From an uncultured delta proteobacterium (GTDB lineage Bacteria; Myxococcota_A; Polyangia; Polyangiales; Houyiibacteriaceae), in NCBI GenBank assembly GCA_963699755.1, contig CAVOVB010000003.1, positions 731,726 through 795,725 of the forward strand: a stretch of 64,000 nucleotides of DNA, written 5' to 3'. Position numbers and translations under genes: made by a program. Positions 24,808 through 38,629 of the stretch are shown here, one piece after another (within the stretch, counting starts at the first letter, position 1; the number at the start of each line of letters is the position of its first letter). The notes beneath the pieces were generated by a model. The model was given only the letters and a program-made list of their open reading frames with translations, ran no database searches and was not told the origin of the DNA.

Positions 24808-25413
24808 TCAGAAGAATTGCAAGGGCCTTCCAGCCTCGAAGAGGAAGCTGAAATCTCCATCGAGCACGGCCCTGCGCTCTTCTGGATCGTCGTGGTCGAC
24901 CAGCTCGACGTTTGTGAAGACAGCTACCGTTTCCTTCGTGTCGTTGTCCAACCAGGGGACGTACAGCTCCTCGAATCGGATCGTGCCGGAAACCGCGGCG
25001 TAGTAAACTGGGATGCGCGCGATCCCAGGACAGGTCGCATTGAGATAGAGTGTCATCTCGACCGGTGGCTCGAGACCGCCGAACTCGATTTCAGCGCCCA
25101 GCATCGTTTCTTTGAGCGTCTGCGGATCGCGGATGAAGATCGCGATTCCGTCGCTGAAGCTTCCGAGGTCGCTGCCGCGCTGCACGATGATGTCGATGAT
25201 CTCGACCGCGGTGCTCGGCTGCATCGCGAAGAAGTCCGGGTTTAGCGAGAACGGCTGTCCGTCGAGCCCGCAGTCGGGCGCCCAGACTTGGCCGACAGCG
25301 CTCCCCTCGCCACTGCCCTTCGCGCAGCCCGTCGTGAGCGGGCCCAAAGAGGCCGGAAGGATCAAGAGGCCGAGCGGGACCCACGCCCTGAGCTCACGCA
25401 ATGAAACCACCAC
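24808..25413 (-). CDS. Hypothetical lipoprotein
   Basis: Signal peptide ending TTGC; overlaps the flanking operon gene. Confidence 0.65.
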   Translation of the reverse strand: MVVSLRELRAWVPLGLLILPASLGPLTTGCAKGSGEGSAVGQVWAPDCGLDGQPFSLNPDFFAMQPSTAVEIIDIIVQRGSDLGSFSDGIAIFIRDPQTLKETMLGAEIEFGGLEPPVEMTLYLNATCPGIARIPVYYAAVSGTIRFEELYVPWLDNDTKETVAVFTNVELVDHDDPEERRAVLDGDFSFLFEAGRPLQFF

Positions 25414-26455
25414 CGATCACCTCGTCGCCAACGTATACCACCGCCGCTTGGCCTGGTGTAATCGCGCGCTGGGGCTCCTCGAAACGCACTTCGAAGCCGT
25501 CGGCGTTTGGCATCACGTCCGCGAGCGCGCCGCGGTGGCGATACCGAATGCGAACCTCCCCTTGGAAAGTCTCCGCCGGACGGCCAGCCACCCAGTGGGC
25601 GTCGATTGCCCTGAGCTCCCTTTCATAGAGCTGCGACTCGTCACCAACCACCACCTCGGCCGTATCGGGCACGATCCGAAGAACGTAGCGCGCGCCCCCA
25701 CCTCCGAGGCCCAGGCCTCGACGTTGCCCACGCGTGAAGTTCGCCATGCCGTCATGACGGCCGAGCACCGCTCCTTCGGAATCGACGATTGCTCCCGACT
25801 TGGCTGAGCTTCCTTCCCGTTGGAGGAAGTCGCCGACGCGCCCGTCAGGCACGAAACAAAGCTCCTGTGACTCGGGCTTGTCCGCGTTCGGAACCCCGAG
25901 GCGCCTGCCCGCTTCGCGCACCTTCGATTTGCGGAGCTCCCCGAGCGGAAAGAGCAGTCGCTCGAGGGTCGACTGGGGCAGACCGAAGAGGAAATAGCTC
26001 TGATCCTTGCCGTCATCGCGGCCTCGCAAGAGACGAAGCTGACCGTCGGCCGCCCGCAGCAGGCGCGCGTAGTGCCCGGTTGCGATGTGCGTGGCGTCGA
26101 AGCGGCGGGCGACCTCCGCAAGATAGGTCAGCTTCACCGTCCGGTTGCAGCTCACGCAGGGGATCGGCGTGCGTCCCGCCTGGTACTCGCTGACAAAGGG
26201 GTGAACGACGTGCTTGCGAAACGCGTCGCGCTCATCGAGAACGTAGTGCGGGATCCCCAGATGTTCGCAGGTGCGACGCGCGTCGTCGCGGTCTTCGGGA
26301 GCACAGCACCGGCCAACCTGTTGCGCTCCGTCGGCGTCCCACAAATGCAGCGTGACGCCTACCAGCTCGTGCCCAGCTTCATGGAGGAGGGCAGCGGCGA
26401 CCGAGGAGTCCACCCCGCCGCTCATCGCGACCAGCACTCGCTTCACTTCAGACAT
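25394..26455 (-). CDS. mnmA: tRNA 2-thiouridylase
   Basis: SGGVDS, TPIPCVSCN, ATGHY, KDQSYFL, ESQELCF and TPGQ motifs. Confidence 0.96.
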   Translation of the reverse strand: MSEVKRVLVAMSGGVDSSVAAALLHEAGHELVGVTLHLWDADGAQQVGRCCAPEDRDDARRTCEHLGIPHYVLDERDAFRKHVVHPFVSEYQAGRTPIPCVSCNRTVKLTYLAEVARRFDATHIATGHYARLLRAADGQLRLLRGRDDGKDQSYFLFGLPQSTLERLLFPLGELRKSKVREAGRRLGVPNADKPESQELCFVPDGRVGDFLQREGSSAKSGAIVDSEGAVLGRHDGMANFTRGQRRGLGLGGGGARYVLRIVPDTAEVVVGDESQLYERELRAIDAHWVAGRPAETFQGEVRIRYRHRGALADVMPNADGFEVRFEEPQRAITPGQAAVVYVGDEVIGGGFIA

Positions 26456-26630
26456 CGAAATTGCACACTGAACAAATCAACCGTGGGTTGTTACACTTAA
26501 TGGAAACCGCCGTAATTCAAAATACAACCCCATAAATTACATTTATTTCAATCATTTACATGCAAAAACGTGAATTCGGGTGAAATCAGTATCCCGGGGG
26601 CTCAACTTTGCTTGAGGTTCTTGCAGCGGT

Positions 26631-27740
26631 CTAGCTGGGTGCTCGGGTCAGAACTCGCTCAAACGCCGCAGAAGCCAAGTCGATATCTTCTTCGCTGGTT
26701 TCGATACCTAAACTGATTCGAACCGCCGAGCCAGCCCGCCACTGCTCATCCGGATACATCGCGCGAATCACCTCAGATGGCGCCAGCAAGCCCGATGAGC
26801 AAGCGGCGCCGGTTGAAAGGCAGACGCCTTCGAGGTCGAGCGCCGCGGCTAGGAGTGGCCCCTTCCAGCGGCGGAAGCTGACGTTGGATACGGTGCCGGT
26901 TCGGGGGGCACAGCCATTGACGAGGCCTCCGAGCTCGATGAGGCGCGCCTCGATCAGGTCGCGGAGCTCGGTCACCGCTGCCTGCCTCGTCAGGCGAGCC
27001 TCGGTGAGACCACAGGCTGCCCCGAAACCGACCATGCTCGAGGTGTCGAGCGTTCCGGGTCGGCGCCCCCGTTCCTGTGAGCCGCCGTCGAACAGCGGGT
27101 CGATGTCGAGGCCACGACGAACCCAGCAGGCGCCGGCCCCTGCGGGCCCGCCGATTTTCTGTGCTGCGAAGGCCGCCGCATCCGGTCGGAGCACGCTGAT
27201 GTCGATCGGCAGCTTACCGAGCGCCTGGGTCGCGTCGACGAACAAGCGTGCCTGATGTTCGCGGCAGGCTTCAGCGTATCGCTCGATCGGAAAGATGGTG
27301 CCGGTTTCGTGATTCACCCACTGAATGGCGACGAGCGTGCCTGGGCCCAGGTGCGTTGCCAGCTCTTCGGGGCTCGGCGGTCGCCCTCGGCGTACGCCCA
27401 GCCTGACGATTTCGCGACCTTCCCGCTCGAGCCGACGCACACTTTCGGCCACCGCCGGGTGCTCGACTTCGCTGGTTACGACGCGAGTGCAGCCCGTGGC
27501 TAAGCCGCGGATTCCGAGGTTGCAGGCTTCAGTGCCACCGCCGGTTAGCACGAGGTCTGCTGCCGCGGCGCCGATCGACTGGGCAACGCTCTGTCGCGCA
27601 AGCTCGAGTAGTCGACGCGAGGCTCGGCCAGCGGTGTGTGTGCTCGATGGGTTGGCCCAGGCGCCAACCGCAGCTTCTTCCATCGCCCGCCGAACCTCGT
27701 CGGGCATCGGCGTCGCCGCGTGGTGATCGAGGTAGATCAC
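26631..27740 (-). CDS. Cysteine desulfurase (IscS/NifS family)
   Basis: YLDHHAATP, EHPAV, NHETG, AQKIGGP and STGAACSSG motifs. Confidence 0.9.
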   Translation of the reverse strand: MIYLDHHAATPMPDEVRRAMEEAAVGAWANPSSTHTAGRASRRLLELARQSVAQSIGAAAADLVLTGGGTEACNLGIRGLATGCTRVVTSEVEHPAVAESVRRLEREGREIVRLGVRRGRPPSPEELATHLGPGTLVAIQWVNHETGTIFPIERYAEACREHQARLFVDATQALGKLPIDISVLRPDAAAFAAQKIGGPAGAGACWVRRGLDIDPLFDGGSQERGRRPGTLDTSSMVGFGAACGLTEARLTRQAAVTELRDLIEARLIELGGLVNGCAPRTGTVSNVSFRRWKGPLLAAALDLEGVCLSTGAACSSGLLAPSEVIRAMYPDEQWRAGSAVRISLGIETSEEDIDLASAAFERVLTRAPS

Positions 27741-31092: not shown

Positions 31093-32808
31093 CTACAGTT
31101 GCTCGGCTTGGGTGTCGGGTTCGGCGACGGACTCTTCGAGCTTTTTATCAGTATCTTCGGATGTTTCCGGAGCCGATTCCCGATCTGCTTCCGGCTCGGG
31201 CGTTTCCATCTCGGAGGTTTCCAAGCTTGCCGCCTCCTGACCCGAATCACTCCAATCGGAGGATTCATCGCGGCGACTCTCCTGGCCCTCCTCGTCGCGT
31301 CCGCCACGTCGTCGACCCCGTCGTCGGCCGCGGCGCCGCCTGTTGTTCTCCGGATCTCGGTTTTCGTCGGAGCTGGTCGCTGGTGCGCCAGTGCTTGCGC
31401 CGCTGCTGGCGCTGCGCGTCGTACCGCCACTGAGCGAGTCGAGAAGATCGACATCGAGCACTGCCAAGGGCAGCGATGCGCGTTGTATCCCGACGCCGAC
31501 TTCTTCCATCGATACCGCAAGCGCGTCCCCGTCGAACACCGCACACGGCGCGGCGCCTTCGGCATGGGCTTCCCCGAGAGTGCCCTCGCGCACCTGGCCC
31601 AAGGTGATCAGCCAGCCGATACGTGCGTGATCGAAACGATGCAGCCCGCCGCGGAGCGCCACGACGGCGTCGTTGCTGATCTGTTGGTTGCCGCGATAGA
31701 TGGTGATCGCCAGCGGGGTTTCTTCCGGACCCCGGCGGAGCATGCCGGCGAGGCTGAAGTCCCCCGCATCGGCGCGGACGCCCCGAAGCGAATGGACGCC
31801 GACCGCATTGAGCCAGGTCGCCAGGAGCTCGAGCAAGGCGCCATCGGGAAGGTCACGCAGGCGCTTGACGAATGCTCGGCGGACCCCCTGGCGCTGCCTG
31901 TCGGCGGCGCGTACTGCGTCTCGCTCGGCGTTCACGGCATCACTGGGGAGGTCCCATTCGAGGAGCCCGAGGAGCCCATCCGCCTCGCGGAACCTCGGAC
32001 GCCCGCCCGCCGCCCGGCGCTTGGCGTTGTCGCCCCGCACAGCGGCACCGAGGGTGGGGGCCAGGAGTGCCGGGGTCCCAGCGAGCCGGCCGCTGTCGAT
32101 CAGCGCTTCGGCGACCTGGGCGAGAGTCCTCGCCCTGCGGCTGCCGCCGCGAAGGGTCGTTTCGATGGCATCCGAAAGGTCCCGACCCACGGGCTCGCCT
32201 GGTTCAGCGGCCCTGGTCGCCGGCGCCGGAGGCTCCTTGCGGGTACGGTCGCGTGGGCCCGGGCGTCGCTCAGGTCGGGCATCTGCGCTTGGTCCACCCT
32301 CGGAGTCCCGTTCACGGCGTCGGCGGGGCCGGCGCTTCCGCGGCTTGCGGGCCTCGCGCGAATCGTCATCGAGATTCGCGAGAATCAGCTCATCGTCGTC
32401 GTCTTCCTCAGGGAAAACCTCAGCGCCTGGAAGATCTTGCGCAGGAATCCTCATCTCTTCCTCAGGCTCGGCCCCTTCCTCTTCGGTGCTGGCTTCTCCT
32501 TCGAGCGCGTCGAAGGCGTCGGGGGCGTCGGGGGCGTCGCTCTCAGGAACCGCGGTTTCCGCCTCGTCTGCGACCACATCTTCGGAGAATTCGCGCAGGG
32601 CGAAGACCCCGGGCTTGACCTTGAGAATCGGAGCATCGCCGCGGTCCTTCTTGACCATGGTGGCGAGCCTCGAGCTCATCGTTGTTTCTGGAGTTTTCCC
32701 GACGTGCGAAAGAAGGTTCCTCTCAATCGCGATTTCGGTAATTTTCTTGTAGTGGAGGGGTTTCCCGACCGAGCGGAGAACCTCCACGGCTGCTTCCGTG
32801 AATGTCAT
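31093..32808 (-). CDS. HARE-HTH protein with a degenerate Mrr-like C-terminal domain
   Basis: MTFTEAAVEVLRSVGKPLHYKKITEIAI...GKTPETTM; second winged-helix-like segment; Mrr-like GWLITLG...FDGDAL. Confidence 0.75.
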   Translation of the reverse strand: MTFTEAAVEVLRSVGKPLHYKKITEIAIERNLLSHVGKTPETTMSSRLATMVKKDRGDAPILKVKPGVFALREFSEDVVADEAETAVPESDAPDAPDAFDALEGEASTEEEGAEPEEEMRIPAQDLPGAEVFPEEDDDDELILANLDDDSREARKPRKRRPRRRRERDSEGGPSADARPERRPGPRDRTRKEPPAPATRAAEPGEPVGRDLSDAIETTLRGGSRRARTLAQVAEALIDSGRLAGTPALLAPTLGAAVRGDNAKRRAAGGRPRFREADGLLGLLEWDLPSDAVNAERDAVRAADRQRQGVRRAFVKRLRDLPDGALLELLATWLNAVGVHSLRGVRADAGDFSLAGMLRRGPEETPLAITIYRGNQQISNDAVVALRGGLHRFDHARIGWLITLGQVREGTLGEAHAEGAAPCAVFDGDALAVSMEEVGVGIQRASLPLAVLDVDLLDSLSGGTTRSASSGASTGAPATSSDENRDPENNRRRRGRRRGRRRGGRDEEGQESRRDESSDWSDSGQEAASLETSEMETPEPEADRESAPETSEDTDKKLEESVAEPDTQAEQL

Positions 32809-33335
32809 TTTTCTGTTCGTTCCTGTCACTCCGGTGGGCGATATGAGCCGCTGCGACGGGGAGCTGGGATTCGCTCCACCCGCGCACTGTCGTGTTGCCC
32901 CGGGGGCTGTTGGACAAGCTCGTTCGCACTCCGACCGGACAAAAGCGGTTGTTGATTGGATTTGTGGGTCAGGAGACCCGTTCGTGTCTTCTCTCGGTAA
33001 CACCGAGCCCGCGGCGAGGCAACGAAACGGGCCTCGAAAGGCGACAAATCTCCCCCTCGTCCAATCGCCCGTGCAGGTCCCAGGACGGTTGCATGGCTTA
33101 ATCCCTGTGGATTTGACTTTGGGAGAGCCGGGGCCCATACGGCGAGTTTGCGGGTAATTGGCTCTGGCCGATCGCCGCTGTTACAGGCACAAGGTCATGG
33201 GCAGGGGGGCTTTGTGTCAGATGGGCGTCGCTGCTGTGGCACGCGAGACACGAGCTCCGCAGCCTGCTCCGGCTTCTGAGGGCGAAGTGCGGTTGGCCCG
33301 CTCTTCGCATGGGTAGCGCGGCAGAGGAGAACGGA

Positions 33336-34405: not shown

Positions 34406-34436
34406 TTGACAATACCGATGTGGGAACACATAGATC
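34406..34436 (+). promoter_or_regulatory. Putative sigma70 promoter of the cys operon
   Basis: Perfect TTGACA at 34406; only a weak -10 downstream. Confidence 0.45.
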
Positions 34437-34444
34437 ACCGTCCG

Positions 34445-34897
34445 GTGAAACTCTCGAATAAGGGCCGATATGGCGTCCGAGCCATTTTCGACATCGCTTT
34501 TCACAGCGGTGGCAGCGCCACGCAGATCAAAGACATCTCGCGTCGGCAGGCCATCCCGCCGCGGTTCCTCGAGCAAATTTTTCAGGACCTCAAGCGAGCC
34601 GGGTTGGTGACGTCCAAGCGTGGGCCCCGAGGCGGTTACGCTCTATCGATGACCGCGGACGATATACGGCTCGGTGACATCGTGCGAGCCCTCGAAGGAC
34701 CCGTCGTGCTGGCGGGCCACGACGGGAATGGCGATGCTGACGAAACCAGCCGCGTCGTGACTGAAACCGTCTTCTCAGAGCTTTCTGAAAGCATCGAGGC
34801 GTGCTTCGACGCGGTCACGATCCAAGATCTATGTGATCGAGGCGATTCGCACGGCATTCGACGCGCCCCGCCTCGACGTTACGTGTATTCAATCTGA
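34445..34897 (+). CDS. Rrf2-family regulator, CymR-like
   Basis: KGRYGVRA, FLEQIF and RGPRGGY motifs; lacks the IscR Fe-S cysteine triad; C-terminus YVYSI. Confidence 0.88.
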   Translation: MKLSNKGRYGVRAIFDIAFHSGGSATQIKDISRRQAIPPRFLEQIFQDLKRAGLVTSKRGPRGGYALSMTADDIRLGDIVRALEGPVVLAGHDGNGDADETSRVVTETVFSELSESIEACFDAVTIQDLCDRGDSHGIRRAPPRRYVYSI

Positions 34898-35823
34898 TGT
34901 CCCCAGTGGTTGTCGATAGCGTGCTCGATTTGGTGGGTGAAACTCCGGTAGTGCGTTTGCGCAATCTCTCCCCCGAAGGCGGCGCGACGATTTGGGGCAA
35001 GTGCGAGCACCTCAATCCTGGTGGTTCGGTCAAAGATCGGATCTGCCTCGCGATGATCGAAGCAGCCGAAGCGGAGGGCCGATTGAAGCCGGGCGACACT
35101 ATTGTCGAGCCTACGAGTGGCAACACCGGCATCGGCCTGGCGCTGGTCTGCGCGCGTAAGGGCTACAAGCTCGTGCTCACAATGCCTGCGAGCATGTCGC
35201 TCGAGCGGCGTGCCCTGCTCGAGGCATACGGAGTAGAAATCGTGCTGACCGAGCCCGATCGGGTGATGGAAGGAGCGATGGAAGCAGCGCGCCGCATCGT
35301 CGAAGAGCGGGGCGCGTTCATGCCCGAGCAGTTTTCGAATCCGGCCAATCCAGGTGTGCACCGTCGCACGACCGCGCCAGAGCTGCTGCGGGCGTTCGAA
35401 GCACAAAGCATCGACGCCTTCGTGGCTGCGGTTGGCACGGGAGGAACCGTGAGTGGCGTCGGCGAGGCACTGAAGGCGCGCAATCCCGAGACCCGCGTAT
35501 TCGCGGTGGAACCAGCCGCGAGCCCCGTGCTGATCGGTGGTCCTCCGGGGCCGACCAAAATCCAAGGGCTCAACGCAGGCTTCATTCCAGACAACTACCA
35601 TGGCGATGTCGTCGACGAGGTCATCGGCGTGAGCGATCAGGACGCCTGGGAGACCAAGCTCGCGCTCGCCAAGCGAGAGGGTCTGCTTCTCGGCATCAGT
35701 GCGGGCGCAAACGTTTGGGCTGCGATCGAAGTCGCCAAGCAACTCGGGCCGGACAAAACGGTCGCGACCATTCTCTGCGACACCGGCGAGCGCTACTTCA
35801 GCTTGGGGGAGTACTTCAAGTGA
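34897..35823 (+). CDS. cysK: Cysteine synthase A
   Basis: NPGGSVKDRI, EPTSGNTGIG, GTGGT, KIQG and CDTGERY motifs. Confidence 0.93.
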   Translation: MSPVVVDSVLDLVGETPVVRLRNLSPEGGATIWGKCEHLNPGGSVKDRICLAMIEAAEAEGRLKPGDTIVEPTSGNTGIGLALVCARKGYKLVLTMPASMSLERRALLEAYGVEIVLTEPDRVMEGAMEAARRIVEERGAFMPEQFSNPANPGVHRRTTAPELLRAFEAQSIDAFVAAVGTGGTVSGVGEALKARNPETRVFAVEPAASPVLIGGPPGPTKIQGLNAGFIPDNYHGDVVDEVIGVSDQDAWETKLALAKREGLLLGISAGANVWAAIEVAKQLGPDKTVATILCDTGERYFSLGEYFK

Positions 35824-36527
35824 AAGACGCGCATCGCGTTCTCGTCGTCGGAGCAGGTGGCCTCGGCTCTCCGGTGCTTCGCTTGCTCGCGCGGAGCGGC
35901 ATCGCGCACATCACGGTCATCGATGACGACCGCGTGGAGGAAAGCAATCTTCACCGGCAGACGCTCTACCAAAGCGACGACGTCGGGCGCTCGAAGATCG
36001 AGCGCGCAGTCGAAGTGCTTCGCGAGATTTCGCCAAGGCTTTCGGTGCACGCGATCGAAGGCCGCTTCGTACCGGAGAGGGCCATGGAGCTCTTGAAAGA
36101 GCACAGCCTCGTGGTCGAAGGCGCGGACAACCTCGCGACCAAGTTTCTCGTTGCCGATGCCGCGCACCTCTGCGCGGTCCCTGCAGTGCAGGCGGGCGCA
36201 GTTCGTTGGGCCGGCTGGGCGTTCTGCGGACTGCCCGATTCGGCTTGCCTCCGCTGCCTCTTCGAGGACATCCCCCCGGACCGACTCGAGACCTGCGCCG
36301 AAGCGGGCGTGCTTGGCCCGGTCGTTGGTGTCCTCGGCGCTCTCGAGGCGGCTCTAGTATTTCGCCTGCTCCAGGGGGAACGTCCGGGAGGCCAGCTTTG
36401 GCACTATGATGCGCTCAAAGGCGCCCTTCGAAAGACCTTCGTGCGCCGACGCGGGGACTGCCCCCTGTGCAAAGGGGAGATTCAGGACCTACGCACGGAG
36501 CGGTACATGGCAGTTTGCGCTGCCTGA
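35820..36527 (+). CDS. ThiF/MoeB E1-like adenylyltransferase lacking the N-terminal RYxRQ segment
   Basis: GAGGLG, SNLHRQ, CLRC, TCAEAGVLG and CPLC; GTG start overlaps the cysK stop. Confidence 0.9.
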   Translation: MKDAHRVLVVGAGGLGSPVLRLLARSGIAHITVIDDDRVEESNLHRQTLYQSDDVGRSKIERAVEVLREISPRLSVHAIEGRFVPERAMELLKEHSLVVEGADNLATKFLVADAAHLCAVPAVQAGAVRWAGWAFCGLPDSACLRCLFEDIPPDRLETCAEAGVLGPVVGVLGALEAALVFRLLQGERPGGQLWHYDALKGALRKTFVRRRGDCPLCKGEIQDLRTERYMAVCAA

Positions 36528-36566
36528 TTCATTCTCCCATTTGTTGGGACTCAGAAAGGAACGAAA

Positions 36567-36848
36567 ATGGCTGTTACGGTACGCATTCCAACCCCACTCC
36601 GGACCTTGACCGGCGGAGCAGACGAAGTCTCCGTGGACGGTGGCACGGTGTCCGAGGTGATCGAAAGCCTCGAGGCCAACCACCCGGGCATGAAAGACCG
36701 CCTCTGCGACGAGAAGGGCGTGCGCCGCTTCGTGAACATCTACGCGAACGACGAGGATATTCGCTTCCTCGACAATCTCGAGACCACGCTCAAGGAGGGC
36801 GACACCCTGAGCATCGTTCCGGCTATCGCGGGCGGGGCCTTGCGTTGA
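36567..36848 (+). CDS. MoaD/ThiS/CysO-like ubiquitin-fold sulfur carrier, precursor ending GG-ALR
   Basis: VRIPTPLR...RRFVNIYANDEDIRFL...IVPAIAGGALR. Confidence 0.92.
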   Translation: MAVTVRIPTPLRTLTGGADEVSVDGGTVSEVIESLEANHPGMKDRLCDEKGVRRFVNIYANDEDIRFLDNLETTLKEGDTLSIVPAIAGGALR

Positions 36849-37210
36849 GCCTCGACGCCGCAGCACGGCGTCGGTACGCGCGTCAGCTTCTTCTCGGTGA
36901 AATCGGGGAGATAGGCCAGGAGCTTCTGCTCGCTGCCCGATTTCGCTGCAGCGCGGACGGCGATCCGTACGCATACGCTGTGGCCGCGGAGTATCTCGAA
37001 CGGGCGGGCTGCTCCGCGGACGAGGATGGCGCCGTCTTGCCGGTCCCGACTCCGGCCGAAGTCATGCGCTTTGCGGGGTCCCCCGCCCTCGCGAGGCCCG
37101 CCGCGGCGATCATGGGTGCATTCACTGCGGTCGAGTACCTGAAGGAGGTTGTCGGCCTCGCGGCCGCGAGCGAGCTTTCCGGCGAGCTGAGATTGAGTAG
37201 CGAGGATTGA
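36845..37210 (+). CDS. Truncated pseudo-E1 (ThiF N-terminal segment plus C-terminal helix)
   Basis: RRYARQLLLGEIGEIGQELL and AAAIMGAFTAVEYLK; no GxGxxG and no Zn motif; overlaps both neighbours. Confidence 0.7.
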   Translation: MSLDAAARRRYARQLLLGEIGEIGQELLLAARFRCSADGDPYAYAVAAEYLERAGCSADEDGAVLPVPTPAEVMRFAGSPALARPAAAIMGAFTAVEYLKEVVGLAAASELSGELRLSSED

Positions 37211-38133
37211 TGCGCTTTCGCAAGATAGAGTCGATCGTCGAGGCGGTCGGGAACACCCCGATGGTGCGCTTGCGTTCGCTCGAAAAGGACGCGCCCGGGA
37301 CCAAGATCTATCTCAAGCTCGAGTACGCGAATCCCGGAGGCTCGGTGAAGGACCGCCCTGCCCGCCAGATGATGCTGGATGCAATCGAAGACGGTCGGCT
37401 TCGCAGCGACAAGATTCTGATCGACGCGACCAGCGGCAACACCGGTGTCGCATACAGCTTGCTTGGCGCCGCGATGGGCTACCGCGTTCAGCTCGTGATG
37501 CCGTCCAACGTCTCGCAGGCGCGCAAGGACATCAGCATGGCGTTCGGCACCGAGATCATTTACAGCGACCCGATGGAAGGCTCCGACGGTGCGATCCGAA
37601 AGGTGCGCCGGATGGTAGCCGAGGATCCAGATCGCTACTTCTACCCCGACCAGTACTCGAATCCGTCAAATCCAAAGGCGCACTACCTCGGCACCGGAGA
37701 GGAGATCATCGAGCAGGTCGGCGATGAGCTCACGCACTTCGTGGCTGGGATCGGAACCAGCGGAACCATCATGGGAACGACGCGGCGACTTCATGAGTAC
37801 AGTCGCAGGATCCAATGCATCGCGGTCGAGCCGGCCGAAGCGCTGCACGGTCTCGAAGGCCTCAAGCACATGGCGAGCTCGCTCGTCCCAGAGATTTACG
37901 ACCCGACGGTTCCTGATGAGATTCTGCCCATCGGCACCGATGCGGGCTGGGACATGTCCGACCGCCTGGCGGCCGAAGAGGGCCTGCACGTCGGGCATTC
38001 GACGGGCGCGAACGTAGCAGCGGCGATCCAAGTGGCCAAGCGCGCTGACGCGAGCTGTGTCCTCGCGATCGCCTGCGACCGGGGCGACCGGTACTTCGCG
38101 CCGATGAAATGGGAGAAGCACTATGAGTGGTGA
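37210..38133 (+). CDS. cysM: Second PLP-dependent cysteine synthase (CysM-like)
   Basis: NPGGSVKDRPA, DATSGNTG, GTSGT, HGLEGLK and CDRGDRY motifs. Confidence 0.85.
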   Translation: MRFRKIESIVEAVGNTPMVRLRSLEKDAPGTKIYLKLEYANPGGSVKDRPARQMMLDAIEDGRLRSDKILIDATSGNTGVAYSLLGAAMGYRVQLVMPSNVSQARKDISMAFGTEIIYSDPMEGSDGAIRKVRRMVAEDPDRYFYPDQYSNPSNPKAHYLGTGEEIIEQVGDELTHFVAGIGTSGTIMGTTRRLHEYSRRIQCIAVEPAEALHGLEGLKHMASSLVPEIYDPTVPDEILPIGTDAGWDMSDRLAAEEGLHVGHSTGANVAAAIQVAKRADASCVLAIACDRGDRYFAPMKWEKHYEW

Positions 38134-38629
38134 GCTGTTTCCGTGGATCTCCGGAGACCTCGAAATCGACAAATCGGTCATGGACGCAATCGAGCAACAC
38201 GCGCTCGAATGCTATCCGAGCGAGAGTTGTGGGTTCGTCTTCGGACCGGCCGAGCAACCTGCCCTTCTCGACGCGCTTCAGCGCGAAGAAAACGAAGCTG
38301 ACAAGTACCATCGGCTCGATCCAGTCACGTTTCCGCGCACCTCGAATACCTATTTCAAGATCAACGAGCTACGCGCGGCCCGCACCTTCGAGCAGGGGCA
38401 ACGCGACGGCCGGCCGGTAAAGGTCATCTACCACTCGCACTGCGACGCGGGTGCGTACTTCTCAGACGAAGATGCGGCGACCTTTGCCAACGGAGGCCAG
38501 CTGATGTGGCCGTGCGCCTACATCGTCGTGAGCATCATGCACGGTGAGGTCGCCGAGCGGCGCCTCTGGGTGCACGAGCCGGGGACAAACGGTTTCCGAG
38601 AATCGACCCTGGCCATTCGAGAGCCCTGA
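38123..38629 (+). CDS. JAB/MPN+ metalloprotease (Mec-like)
   Basis: YPSESCG...YHSHCDAGAYFSDED. Confidence 0.9.
   Translation: MSGELFPWISGDLEIDKSVMDAIEQHALECYPSESCGFVFGPAEQPALLDALQREENEADKYHRLDPVTFPRTSNTYFKINELRAARTFEQGQRDGRPVKVIYHSHCDAGAYFSDEDAATFANGGQLMWPCAYIVVSIMHGEVAERRLWVHEPGTNGFRESTLAIREP

What the first reader, a model, noticed from the sequence alone, without database searches (positions are those of the whole stretch)
35820..37210. Apparent split, heterodimeric bacterial E1: catalytic subunit plus an Arg-finger pseudo-E1
Seen in sequence: the E1 at 35820 begins directly at the Rossmann strand (RVLVVGAGGLG). It keeps SNLHRQ, both CxxC pairs and the TCAEAG cysteine, but has no N-terminal RYxRQ...IG..GQ segment, even in its upstream in-frame extension. 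The 121-aa ORF at 36845 has exactly that segment (RRYARQLLLGEIGEIGQELL) plus a MoeB-like C-terminal helix (AAAIMGAFTAVEYLK), and has no GxGxxG or Zn sites. Established: in MoeB/ThiF homodimers the RYxRQ arginine completes the partner's ATP site, and eukaryotic SAE1/SAE2 and NAE1/UBA3 divide this job between an inactive and an active subunit. Inference: the two genes form an obligate heterodimer, a bacterial parallel to eukaryotic E1 architecture.
Basis: partly seen in the sequence, partly recalled or inferred. Interest (0 to 1): 0.9.

Follow-up and report, generated by a model that had tools for sequence, protein, structure and literature searches.

The report
Two-part bacterial sulfur-carrier activating enzyme
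In many myxobacteria the enzyme that activates a ubiquitin-like sulfur carrier appears to be built from two different genes, a catalytic half and a small inactive partner, much like the SUMO- and NEDD8-activating enzymes of eukaryotes, and in some relatives the two halves are fused into one chain.

Summary
Observation confirmed. In a Myxococcota cysteine operon (rrf2-cysK-E1-Ubl-ORF-cysM-JAB), the MoeB-like E1 keeps every catalytic motif but lacks the N-terminal Arg-finger segment. The 121-aa ORF carries that segment plus two dimer helices and no active site; dN/dS is 0.28 and R13 is invariant. Of 120 Ubl-anchored phylum genomes, 46 have both genes, 4 a natural pseudo-E1/E1 fusion, 66 neither, 4 the truncated E1 alone and 0 the pseudo-E1 alone. 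Conserved MoeB columns split complementarily between the two. A predicted complex scores 0.92 against a best control of 0.00 (mark reached by 116/157 solved and 2/215 mismatched pairs; likeness to the MoeB dimer may help). A fusion model overlays BilD and UBA1 across both halves. A heterodimeric E1 is likely (0.72). 'Obligate' is not supported: 53 of 61 genomes of one family keep the truncated E1 with no partner found, and papers report the MoeB/ThiF Arg finger as non-essential. The inactive/active split is known in eukaryotes and, within one chain, in bacterial BilD; my searches found no two-gene bacterial version. This scan noted the same pair on other DNA (e1-7822151).

The parts
34406..34897 (+). 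Rrf2-family regulator (CymR/IscR-like), head of the operon; start codon uncertain
   Evidence: Pfam Rrf2 E 3.6e-35; TIGR00738 over cut-off
34897..35823 (+). cysK, cysteine synthase A
   Evidence: TIGR01139 396 bits, over cut-off 351
35820..36527 (+). N-truncated MoeB/ThiF-like E1, the catalytic subunit (AAD-like), 235 aa
   Evidence: G11-G16, R46, K59 and D103 align with MoeB P-loop, R73, K86 and D130 (MoeB numbering from passages)
35943..35960 (+). SNLHRQ loop of the E1 (residues 42-47); touches the pseudo-E1 in the predicted complex
   Evidence: interface residues 41-46
36567..36848 (+). Ubiquitin-like sulfur carrier (CysO/MoaD/SAMP-like), ending Gly-Gly plus 3 residues that need trimming
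   Evidence: Pfam ThiS E 1e-16; the tail after GG varies from 0 to 4 residues in relatives
36845..37210 (+). Pseudo-E1, the inactive partner subunit (minimal IAD-like), 121 aa
36869..36886 (+). RRYARQ Arg-finger segment; R13 (36881-36883) corresponds to the second Arg of RYxRQ in ThiF/MoeB
   Evidence: invariant in 21/21, 49/49 and 150/150 profile hits; aligned to ThiF
37100..37144 (+). C-terminal dimer helix of the pseudo-E1 (residues 86-100), packing on E1 residues 167-182 in the model
37210..38133 (+). second PLP cysteine synthase (CysM-like); probable consumer of the thiocarboxylated carrier
   Evidence: TIGR01136/TIGR01138 322-327 bits, below cut-offs; role inferred from the CysO/CysM pathway
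38123..38629 (+). JAB/Mec-type metalloprotease; probable Ubl trimmer and cysteine releaser
   Evidence: Pfam Prok-JAB E 7e-16

Best explanation
A duplicated MoeB-type E1 has split its two jobs between two genes. The 235-aa subunit keeps the ATP site and adenylates the C-terminal glycine of the operon's Ubl after the JAB protease trims it. The 121-aa pseudo-E1 takes the place of the second protomer of the usual MoeB homodimer: it packs on the dimer helices and lays its N-terminal Arg13 on the partner's phosphate-binding loop, giving a one-site heterodimer like SAE1-SAE2 or NAE1-UBA3. The activated Ubl is then converted to a thiocarboxylate by an unknown sulfur donor and used by the CysM-like enzyme to make cysteine, which JAB releases. 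The partner probably stabilises and speeds the enzyme and need not be strictly essential. Shown: motifs, conservation, co-occurrence, fusions, complementary residue loss. Predicted: the interface. Inferred: substrate, pathway, size of the effect.
For: (1) Co-occurrence in 120 Ubl-anchored genomes: 46 both, 4 fused, 66 neither, 4 E1 only, 0 pseudo-E1 only. In 4 genomes the two genes are kept although unlinked. In 5 genomes of the order, plus loci L040 and L042, both are gone from an otherwise intact operon. (2) Natural single-chain fusions, pseudo-E1 first: P0182, P0219/P0330, P0325 and four genomes of family f32. An AF2 model of P0219 (pLDDT 68.9, pTM 0.79) overlays BilD over 324 residues (Z 20.3, rmsd 4.4) and human UBA1 over 350 (Z 17.9, rmsd 4.7), against 226 for single-domain MoeB. 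(3) Complementary loss of columns conserved in 48 full-length E1s (share in 87 truncated E1s / 29 long pseudo-E1s): Arg finger 0.00/1.00, Tyr of YLAAAG 0.00/0.90, Glu of AxEA 0.11/0.86; conversely P-loop Gly 1.00/0.07, Asn of SNL 1.00/0.00, Arg 1.00/0.03, Lys 1.00/0.00, crossover Cys 0.98/0.00. (4) Predicted complex 0.92, best of 3 controls 0.00; the mark was reached by 116 of 157 solved and 2 of 215 mismatched pairs (rough here, as my own alignments were used); runs agree in at least 98% of contacts, partner pLDDT at least 91; pseudo-E1 9-14 and E1 41-46 are both in the interface. A pass may come from likeness to the solved MoeB/ThiF dimer. (5) Pseudo-E1 dN/dS 0.275 over 78 pairs, 0.13 in the N-terminal segment; predicted interface columns are more conserved than the rest, 0.71 vs 0.52. 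(6) The pseudo-E1 profile finds SAE1 and NAE1 but not SAE2 or UBA3 among 34 PDB hits; the truncated E1 finds SAE2 and UBA3 but not SAE1 or NAE1 among the 60 of 77 shown.
Against: Family f26: 53 of 61 genomes have an orthologue of the truncated E1, with catalytic motifs intact and the operon closed up in the 30 loci read, and no pseudo-E1 was found in these 61 genomes (only 66 candidates per genome scored). G142 is a further case. Passages report the Arg finger as non-essential in MoeB, ThiF and yeast Tcd1. The window's genome and relatives checked also hold a full-length E1 that could activate the Ubl, so the pair's substrate is not proven. The fused copies and the pair in G441 lie away from any Ubl gene. 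A tree-aware test gave only 3 independent supported pairs; the traits went the same way in 2.9 of 3 on average, which is not significant (p 0.25). No homodimer model could be run for comparison. No biochemistry.
Confidence: 0.72

Rival explanations
1. The truncated E1 works by itself as a homodimer without an Arg finger. The pseudo-E1 is an optional modulator, either a stimulator or a half-site inhibitor that dilutes active sites.
For: Family f26 and G142 keep the truncated E1 without a detectable partner. E1-family enzymes tolerate loss of the Arg finger (passages).
Against: The pseudo-E1 was never found without the truncated E1 (0 of 120), is retained in 50 of the 54 sampled genomes with the truncated E1, and fuses to it permanently. 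The truncated E1 has lost the Tyr and Glu of the dimer helices that full-length E1s keep.
Confidence: 0.14
2. Split-gene complementation: the small protein only lends its N-terminal helix to fill the gap in each protomer of an ordinary homodimer (2:2 complex).
For: The strongest conservation is in the N-terminal 25 residues, which is exactly the piece the E1 lacks.
Against: The protein folds as its own reduced E1 domain (pLDDT 91.5; best five fold matches all E1-family, Z 7.8-6.3, middling scores). It keeps both dimer helices; longer relatives keep most of the fold, including degenerate CxxC sites. The model pairs helix 86-100 with E1 helix 167-182, and the fusion model follows IAD-AAD geometry.
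Confidence: 0.06
3. The pseudo-E1 serves another partner: the full-length MoeZ-type E1 as a dominant-negative cap, or the JAB protease or Ubl as an adaptor.
For: It is fused to JAB in family f34 and read through from the Ubl in P0146 and P0216/P0331. A full-length E1 is present in the genomes checked.
Against: It was not found in 66 genomes that keep Ubl and, in all but one, a full-length E1 but lack the truncated E1. Tree distances correlate with the truncated E1 (r 0.56, partial 0.44) more than with Ubl (0.28) or JAB (0.36) over 50 loci; this is weak evidence because kin share distances. JAB and Ubl are its immediate neighbours, so those fusions can arise by stop-codon loss.
Confidence: 0.06
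4. The small ORF is a decaying remnant of a duplicated moeB.
For: It evolves faster than the E1 (dN/dS 0.275 vs 0.148), varies from about 87 to 260 aa and has been lost in some lineages.
Against: Purifying selection; the frame is intact and 119-121 aa long in most of 120 listed homologues; an invariant Arg across 150 clusters at 50% identity; present in many families of the phylum and in Ca. Binatia proteins.
Confidence: 0.02

Closest known systems
Eukaryotic heterodimeric E1s SAE1-SAE2 and NAE1(APPBP1)-UBA3
   Same: Inactive and active adenylation domains on separate chains; the inactive chain gives one Arg to the ATP pocket (APPBP1 Arg15, passages; domain layout, passages). Reciprocal PDB hit pattern.
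   Different: No cysteine half-domains, no ubiquitin-fold domain, no E2 in the operon; the inactive chain is about 120 aa, not 346-534; the context is sulfur transfer, not protein conjugation. Probably convergent (inference; not tested by a tree with eukaryotic E1s).
BilD of Type II Bil anti-phage systems (Chambers et al., bioRxiv 2023.09.26.559546)
   Same: Bacterial inactive plus active adenylation domains, with a key Arg (Arg9) from the inactive one (passages). The natural fusion found here overlays it across both halves.
   Different: BilD is one chain with a mobile CYS domain and works with an E2 in defence. Here the usual state is two genes in a cysteine operon, with no CYS insertion.
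E. coli MoeB and ThiF homodimers (Pfam PF00899)
   Same: Closest solved relatives of both subunits; all catalytic residues are kept in the truncated E1.
   Different: They are symmetric, with two sites and the Arg finger on the same gene product. Here these residues are split between two genes.
CysO/CysM/Mec/MoeZR cysteine pathway; operon type 4c of Iyer et al. 2006
   Same: Ubl carrier, JAB protease, PLP cysteine synthase and E1 together (passages).
   Different: There the E1 is full-length and rhodanese-fused. Here the operon E1 has no rhodanese (a TusA domain is fused in some relatives) and has a partner subunit.
Yeast Tcd1-Tcd2 heterodimer (PMC13139853)
   Same: A ThiF-family homodimer turned heterodimer, in which the inactive paralogue stabilises the active one and lends a non-essential Arg finger (passages).
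   Different: Eukaryotic, acts on tRNA, and both subunits are full-size.

Membership tests
MoeB/ThiF adenylyltransferases (for the 235-aa E1) | P-loop GxGxxG, SNLxRQ Arg, Lys and Mg-binding Asp | tested here: met
   G11-G16, R46, K59, D103; invariant in 21 rows; aligned to MoeB/ThiF
MoeB/ThiF adenylyltransferases (for the 235-aa E1) | two CxxC zinc motifs and crossover Cys | tested here: met
   C143/C146, C214/C217, C159 invariant
MoeB/ThiF adenylyltransferases (for the 235-aa E1) | N-terminal RYxRQ Arg-finger segment on the same chain | tested here: not met
   0.00 of 87 truncated E1s vs 1.00 of 48 full-length
MoeB/ThiF adenylyltransferases (for the 235-aa E1) | symmetric homodimer with two active sites | not tested
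Canonical heterodimeric E1 (SAE, NAE) | separate inactive and active adenylation-domain chains | tested here: met
   at sequence and model level:
Canonical heterodimeric E1 (SAE, NAE) | the two chains bind and the inactive one places an Arg in the ATP site | tested here: inconclusive
   predicted only: 0.92 vs best control 0.00 (116/157 solved, 2/215 mismatched reach the mark), residues 9-14 and 41-46 in the interface; no ATP in the model
Canonical heterodimeric E1 (SAE, NAE) | catalytic-cysteine domain insertion and C-terminal ubiquitin-fold domain | tested here: not met
   only 12 residues between C146 and C159; the chain ends 18 residues after the second CxxC
Canonical heterodimeric E1 (SAE, NAE) | transfer to an E2 | tested here: inconclusive
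   no E2 family among the 7 operon genes; the genome was not searched for E2
BilD-type bacterial E1 | IAD and AAD on one chain | tested here: not met
   two genes in the window; met only by the natural fusions in relatives
BilD-type bacterial E1 | CYS domain and BilABC neighbours | tested here: not met
   no insertion; neighbours are cysteine-synthesis genes
CysO/CysM/Mec sulfur relay | Ubl with C-terminal Gly-Gly, JAB protease and PLP cysteine synthase in one operon | tested here: met
CysO/CysM/Mec sulfur relay | rhodanese-fused E1 in the operon | tested here: not met
   the operon E1 has only ThiF; a longer full-length E1 lies about 100 kb away on the same contig
CysO/CysM/Mec sulfur relay | Ubl thiocarboxylate used as sulfur donor | not testable with these tools
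   needs biochemistry

The most novel reading that the evidence does not exclude
This is a genuine two-chain bacterial E1, and the family preserves a living series that repeats, independently of eukaryotes, the route from symmetric homodimer to inactive/active heterodimer to single-chain IAD-AAD enzyme. The series includes near full-size inactive subunits (190-260 aa), a minimal one (about 90-120 aa, smaller than the inactive subunits seen in the PDB hits here), UBA1-like fusions, and one family that has dropped the partner again. It would be a simple natural system for asking why E1s give up one active site.
Probability: 0.62. Interest if true: 0.85.

Novelty: new variant of a known kind. Interest (0 to 1): 0.72.

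Why it matters
A 2023 structural paper states that all known bacterial E1s apart from single-chain BilD are homodimers (passage). A widespread two-gene version in ordinary sulfur metabolism would show that the inactive/active asymmetry of SUMO, NEDD8 and ubiquitin E1s arises readily from MoeB by duplication and complementary loss. The small proteins, the graded sizes, the fusions and the partner-less family allow direct tests of what the inactive half contributes (stability, ATP affinity, one-site specificity). It also gives a function to a family now annotated as hypothetical.

Tried and rejected
Assembly or start-codon artefact: rejected. Direct profile comparison of pseudo-E1 with truncated E1 is weak (hhalign probability 10%, 35 columns), as expected if they kept different parts; the homology rests on hits to full-length E1s. 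Rooting: the TcdA outgroup fell inside the truncated group, so I claim only an unrooted split of 45 truncated from 34 full-length cores (100/99), not a clade or an order of events. I did not place the pseudo-E1 itself on a tree. Expression: two RNA runs hold only small shares as contigs, so transcription is not shown. The metagenome scan with a fusion protein returned only two ordinary full-length E1s. Weak second matches of the pseudo-E1 profile: 10 were fetched and are complete E1-like proteins with an intact P-loop, TcdA-type by recalled motif; about nine others that begin at profile position 20 or later were not fetched. L195 and L205 were misfiled as truncated by a pattern and corrected. 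(11 genomes of the class) was not used. A CysE-like match below the cut-off exists in the genome, so an O-acetylserine route is not excluded. No cultured organism name turned up in the three look-ups. Literature searches without a report of a two-gene bacterial E1. The library lacks most subscription papers; Burroughs et al., 'Natural History' of the E1-like superfamily, was seen only as a reference-list entry and could describe this pair. No supplements were read.
Full report
Setting. The finding lies in a seven-gene run on the + strand: Rrf2 regulator, cysK, E1, Ubl, small ORF, CysM-like synthase and JAB protease. Named close relatives are Polyangiales/Myxococcota. The two runs that hold half or more of the stretch are sediment metagenomes. 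The genome holds one other MoeB-type E1, full-length with an RYSRH segment and an N-terminal domain that looks rhodanese-like by recalled motif, a second Ubl and a MoaE match.

Observation. The E1 (235 aa) starts just before the Rossmann strand and lacks Pfam ThiF positions 1-20. R46, K59 and D103 align with MoeB R73, K86 and D130 (numbering from passages of PMC12355090). The 121-aa ORF has the missing segment and no catalytic motif. Both starts overlap the previous stop codon by four bases. In relatives the upstream frame of the E1 is an off-frame reading of cysK.

The small ORF is a real pseudo-E1. It matches in 21 of 24 other genomes of the genus; 34 of 41 genomes matched overall, but several of the six weakest matches are N-termini of full-length E1s. 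Median dN/dS over 78 pairs of 13 genus sequences is 0.275, against 0.148 for the E1 over 66 pairs. R13 is invariant in 21 of 21, 49 of 49 and 150 of 150 sequences, while neighbouring positions vary. These sets were collected with profiles containing that column, so the figure is biased upward. Only 2 of the 150 have a P-loop or SNLxRQ. The AF2 model is confident (pLDDT 91.5), and its five best fold matches are Uba4, MoeB, APPBP1, MccB and TcdA (Z 7.8-6.3, which are middling scores). Relatives form a size series from about 87 to 260 aa; the long ones keep most of the fold with degenerate zinc sites. Similar proteins are named from Ca. Binatia; I did not see their gene context.

Co-occurrence. 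To avoid selecting on the trait I anchored on the Ubl. Of 301 phylum genomes, 140 matched. I fetched the best 120 of the 126 match rows outside the genus; the 6 weakest rows and the 161 genomes without a match were not examined. Loci were classed by profile and by eye, and genomes lacking either gene at the locus were searched whole (for five genomes the pseudo-E1 check is). Result: 46 have both as separate genes, 4 have a fusion, 66 have neither, 4 have the truncated E1 alone and 0 have the pseudo-E1 alone. Of the 46, 41 have both by the Ubl, 4 have them unlinked and 1 has an adjacent pair elsewhere. Whole-genome searches scored a capped number of candidates, so 'neither' means not found. Kin are not independent: on a Ubl tree only 3 supported independent pairs exist, nearly always concordant but p 0.25.

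Fusions. P0182, P0219/P0330 and P0325 are natural chains with the pseudo-E1 first and the truncated E1 second, and four genomes of family f32 encode the same. Their C-halves fall on the truncated side of the tree. A model of P0219 from four sequences (pLDDT 68.9; residues 1-23 under 50, so the Arg finger is not placed) overlays BilD over 324 residues and human UBA1 over 350, spanning both halves. The f32 fusions lie outside the sulfur operon, near peptidase, epimerase, dehydrogenase or glutaredoxin genes, so their substrate is open.

Complementary residue loss. Against 48 full-length E1s, the 87 truncated ones (a few genomes occur twice) keep the P-loop, Asp, Asn, Arg, Lys, Asp and Cys at 0.95-1.00. 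They have lost the Arg-finger segment (0.00), the Tyr of the first dimer helix (0.00), the Asn of the NP turn (0.03) and the Glu of the second dimer helix (0.11). The 29 long pseudo-E1s show the mirror image: 1.00, 0.90, 0.72 and 0.86 for these, and 0.00-0.24 for the catalytic positions. This is the pattern expected when the two halves of a homodimer specialise (inference).

Predicted complex. Score 0.92 in three runs; best of three controls 0.00. The mark was reached by 116 of 157 solved and 2 of 215 mismatched pairs, counts that hold only roughly with my own alignments. The runs agree in at least 98% of contacts and partner pLDDT is at least 91. The interface joins pseudo-E1 helix 86-100 with E1 helix 167-182 and includes pseudo-E1 9-14 and E1 41-46. 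The pass may reflect likeness to the solved MoeB/ThiF dimer, and no homodimer was run.

Against 'obligate'. In family f26, 53 of 61 genomes hold the truncated-E1 orthologue (E below 1e-43). In the 30 loci read it has intact core motifs and no RYxR upstream, and no pseudo-E1 is detected; where the loci reach that far, the Ubl is followed directly by cysM. A pseudo-E1 profile over the 61 genomes gave only N-termini of long E1 frames and matches lacking the Arg segment, apart from three partial N-terminal matches (G523, G567, G518) that I did not fetch (66 candidates scored per genome). G142 also lacks it. Passages read say that the MoeB and ThiF Arg fingers are not essential and that Tcd1 R59A costs 26% (PMC13139853), that UBA3 alone works slowly and APPBP1 R15A only slows (PMC6031683), and that the short UBA5 isoform functions with much lower ATP affinity (PMC7602216). 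The partner is best read as a stabilising and accelerating subunit that some lineages have learned to do without, or have replaced with the full-length E1.

Mechanism. JAB trims the Ubl to Gly-Gly (inferred from the variable tail, and from BilC passages). The heterodimer adenylates it at a single site. A sulfur donor, unknown here, forms the thiocarboxylate; a TusA domain fused to the truncated E1 in L152 points to sulfur transfer. The CysM-like enzyme then makes Ubl-bound cysteine and JAB releases it, as in the CysO/CysM/Mec pathway (passages of PMC3227635; operon type 4c in passages of PMC1779556). Steps after the interface are inference. Why a second E1 is kept beside the full-length one is unexplained.

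Comparison and novelty. It works like SAE or NAE but is not a member: it has no cysteine domain or ubiquitin-fold domain, and no E2 in the operon. BilD already shows inactive plus active domains in bacteria, in one chain (passages of bioRxiv 2023.09.26.559546; also PMC11354881); BubCD is homodimeric (section title and passages of bioRxiv 2024.11.21.623953). Eight searches showed no two-gene bacterial E1. All papers were seen as listings or passages only, with no supplements, and the library misses most subscription journals. An earlier AI note of this scan describes the same pair in another genome (e1-7822151); I found it after my own tests and do not count it as support. Verdict: new variant of a known kind; heterodimer likely (0.72), obligate status unsupported; interest 0.72.

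Noticed in passing
L172, L179-L182, L184-L186, L194, L141, L174 (family f34): The pseudo-E1 is fused in frame to the JAB protease (about 340-370 aa); in four genomes the truncated E1 has moved elsewhere.
   Followed up: partly
P0146, P0216/P0331; L156:3998-5080 (-): Read-through fusions: Ubl into pseudo-E1, and truncated E1 into Ubl. JAB cleavage after Gly-Gly could separate the former.
   Followed up: no
L152:4288-5202 (-), L228:1071-2024: Truncated E1 with a C-terminal extension; Pfam TusA E 8.7e-14 in L152, similar sequence in L228. Candidate built-in sulfur donor.
   Followed up: partly
L334-L363 (family f26): A whole family keeps the truncated E1 without a detectable partner, with a distinct conserved first dimer helix and loss of the Asn after the Mg-binding Asp. 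It may have rebuilt a homodimer surface.
   Followed up: partly
L052, L097, L100: Non-myxobacterial loci carry two full-length E1 paralogues near the same Ubl type, a possible model for the state before the split.
   Followed up: partly
L058:3689-4978; L137, L138, L091: A further PLP enzyme with an N-terminal CxxC motif sits between the truncated E1 and the Ubl in some Polyangia (Pfam PALP for L058; threonine-synthase-like by recall).
   Followed up: no
L148:3106-3921, L165:2959-3918: In genomes lacking both E1 genes the cysK position holds a divergent or shortened PALP-family gene.
   Followed up: no
window 25394-27740 (-): A cysteine desulfurase (below family cut-offs) and mnmA lie about 7 kb upstream of the operon; a possible sulfur source.
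   Followed up: partly
window 36501-36506 (E1 residues 228-229): The C-terminal tail of the truncated E1 has a conserved Arg-Tyr and a final Cys in the order; role unknown, not in the predicted interface.
   Followed up: no
window 31093-33138 (-): A 681-aa ORF with acidic and Arg-rich low-complexity stretches; no NCBIfam hit at 1e-20.
   Followed up: no
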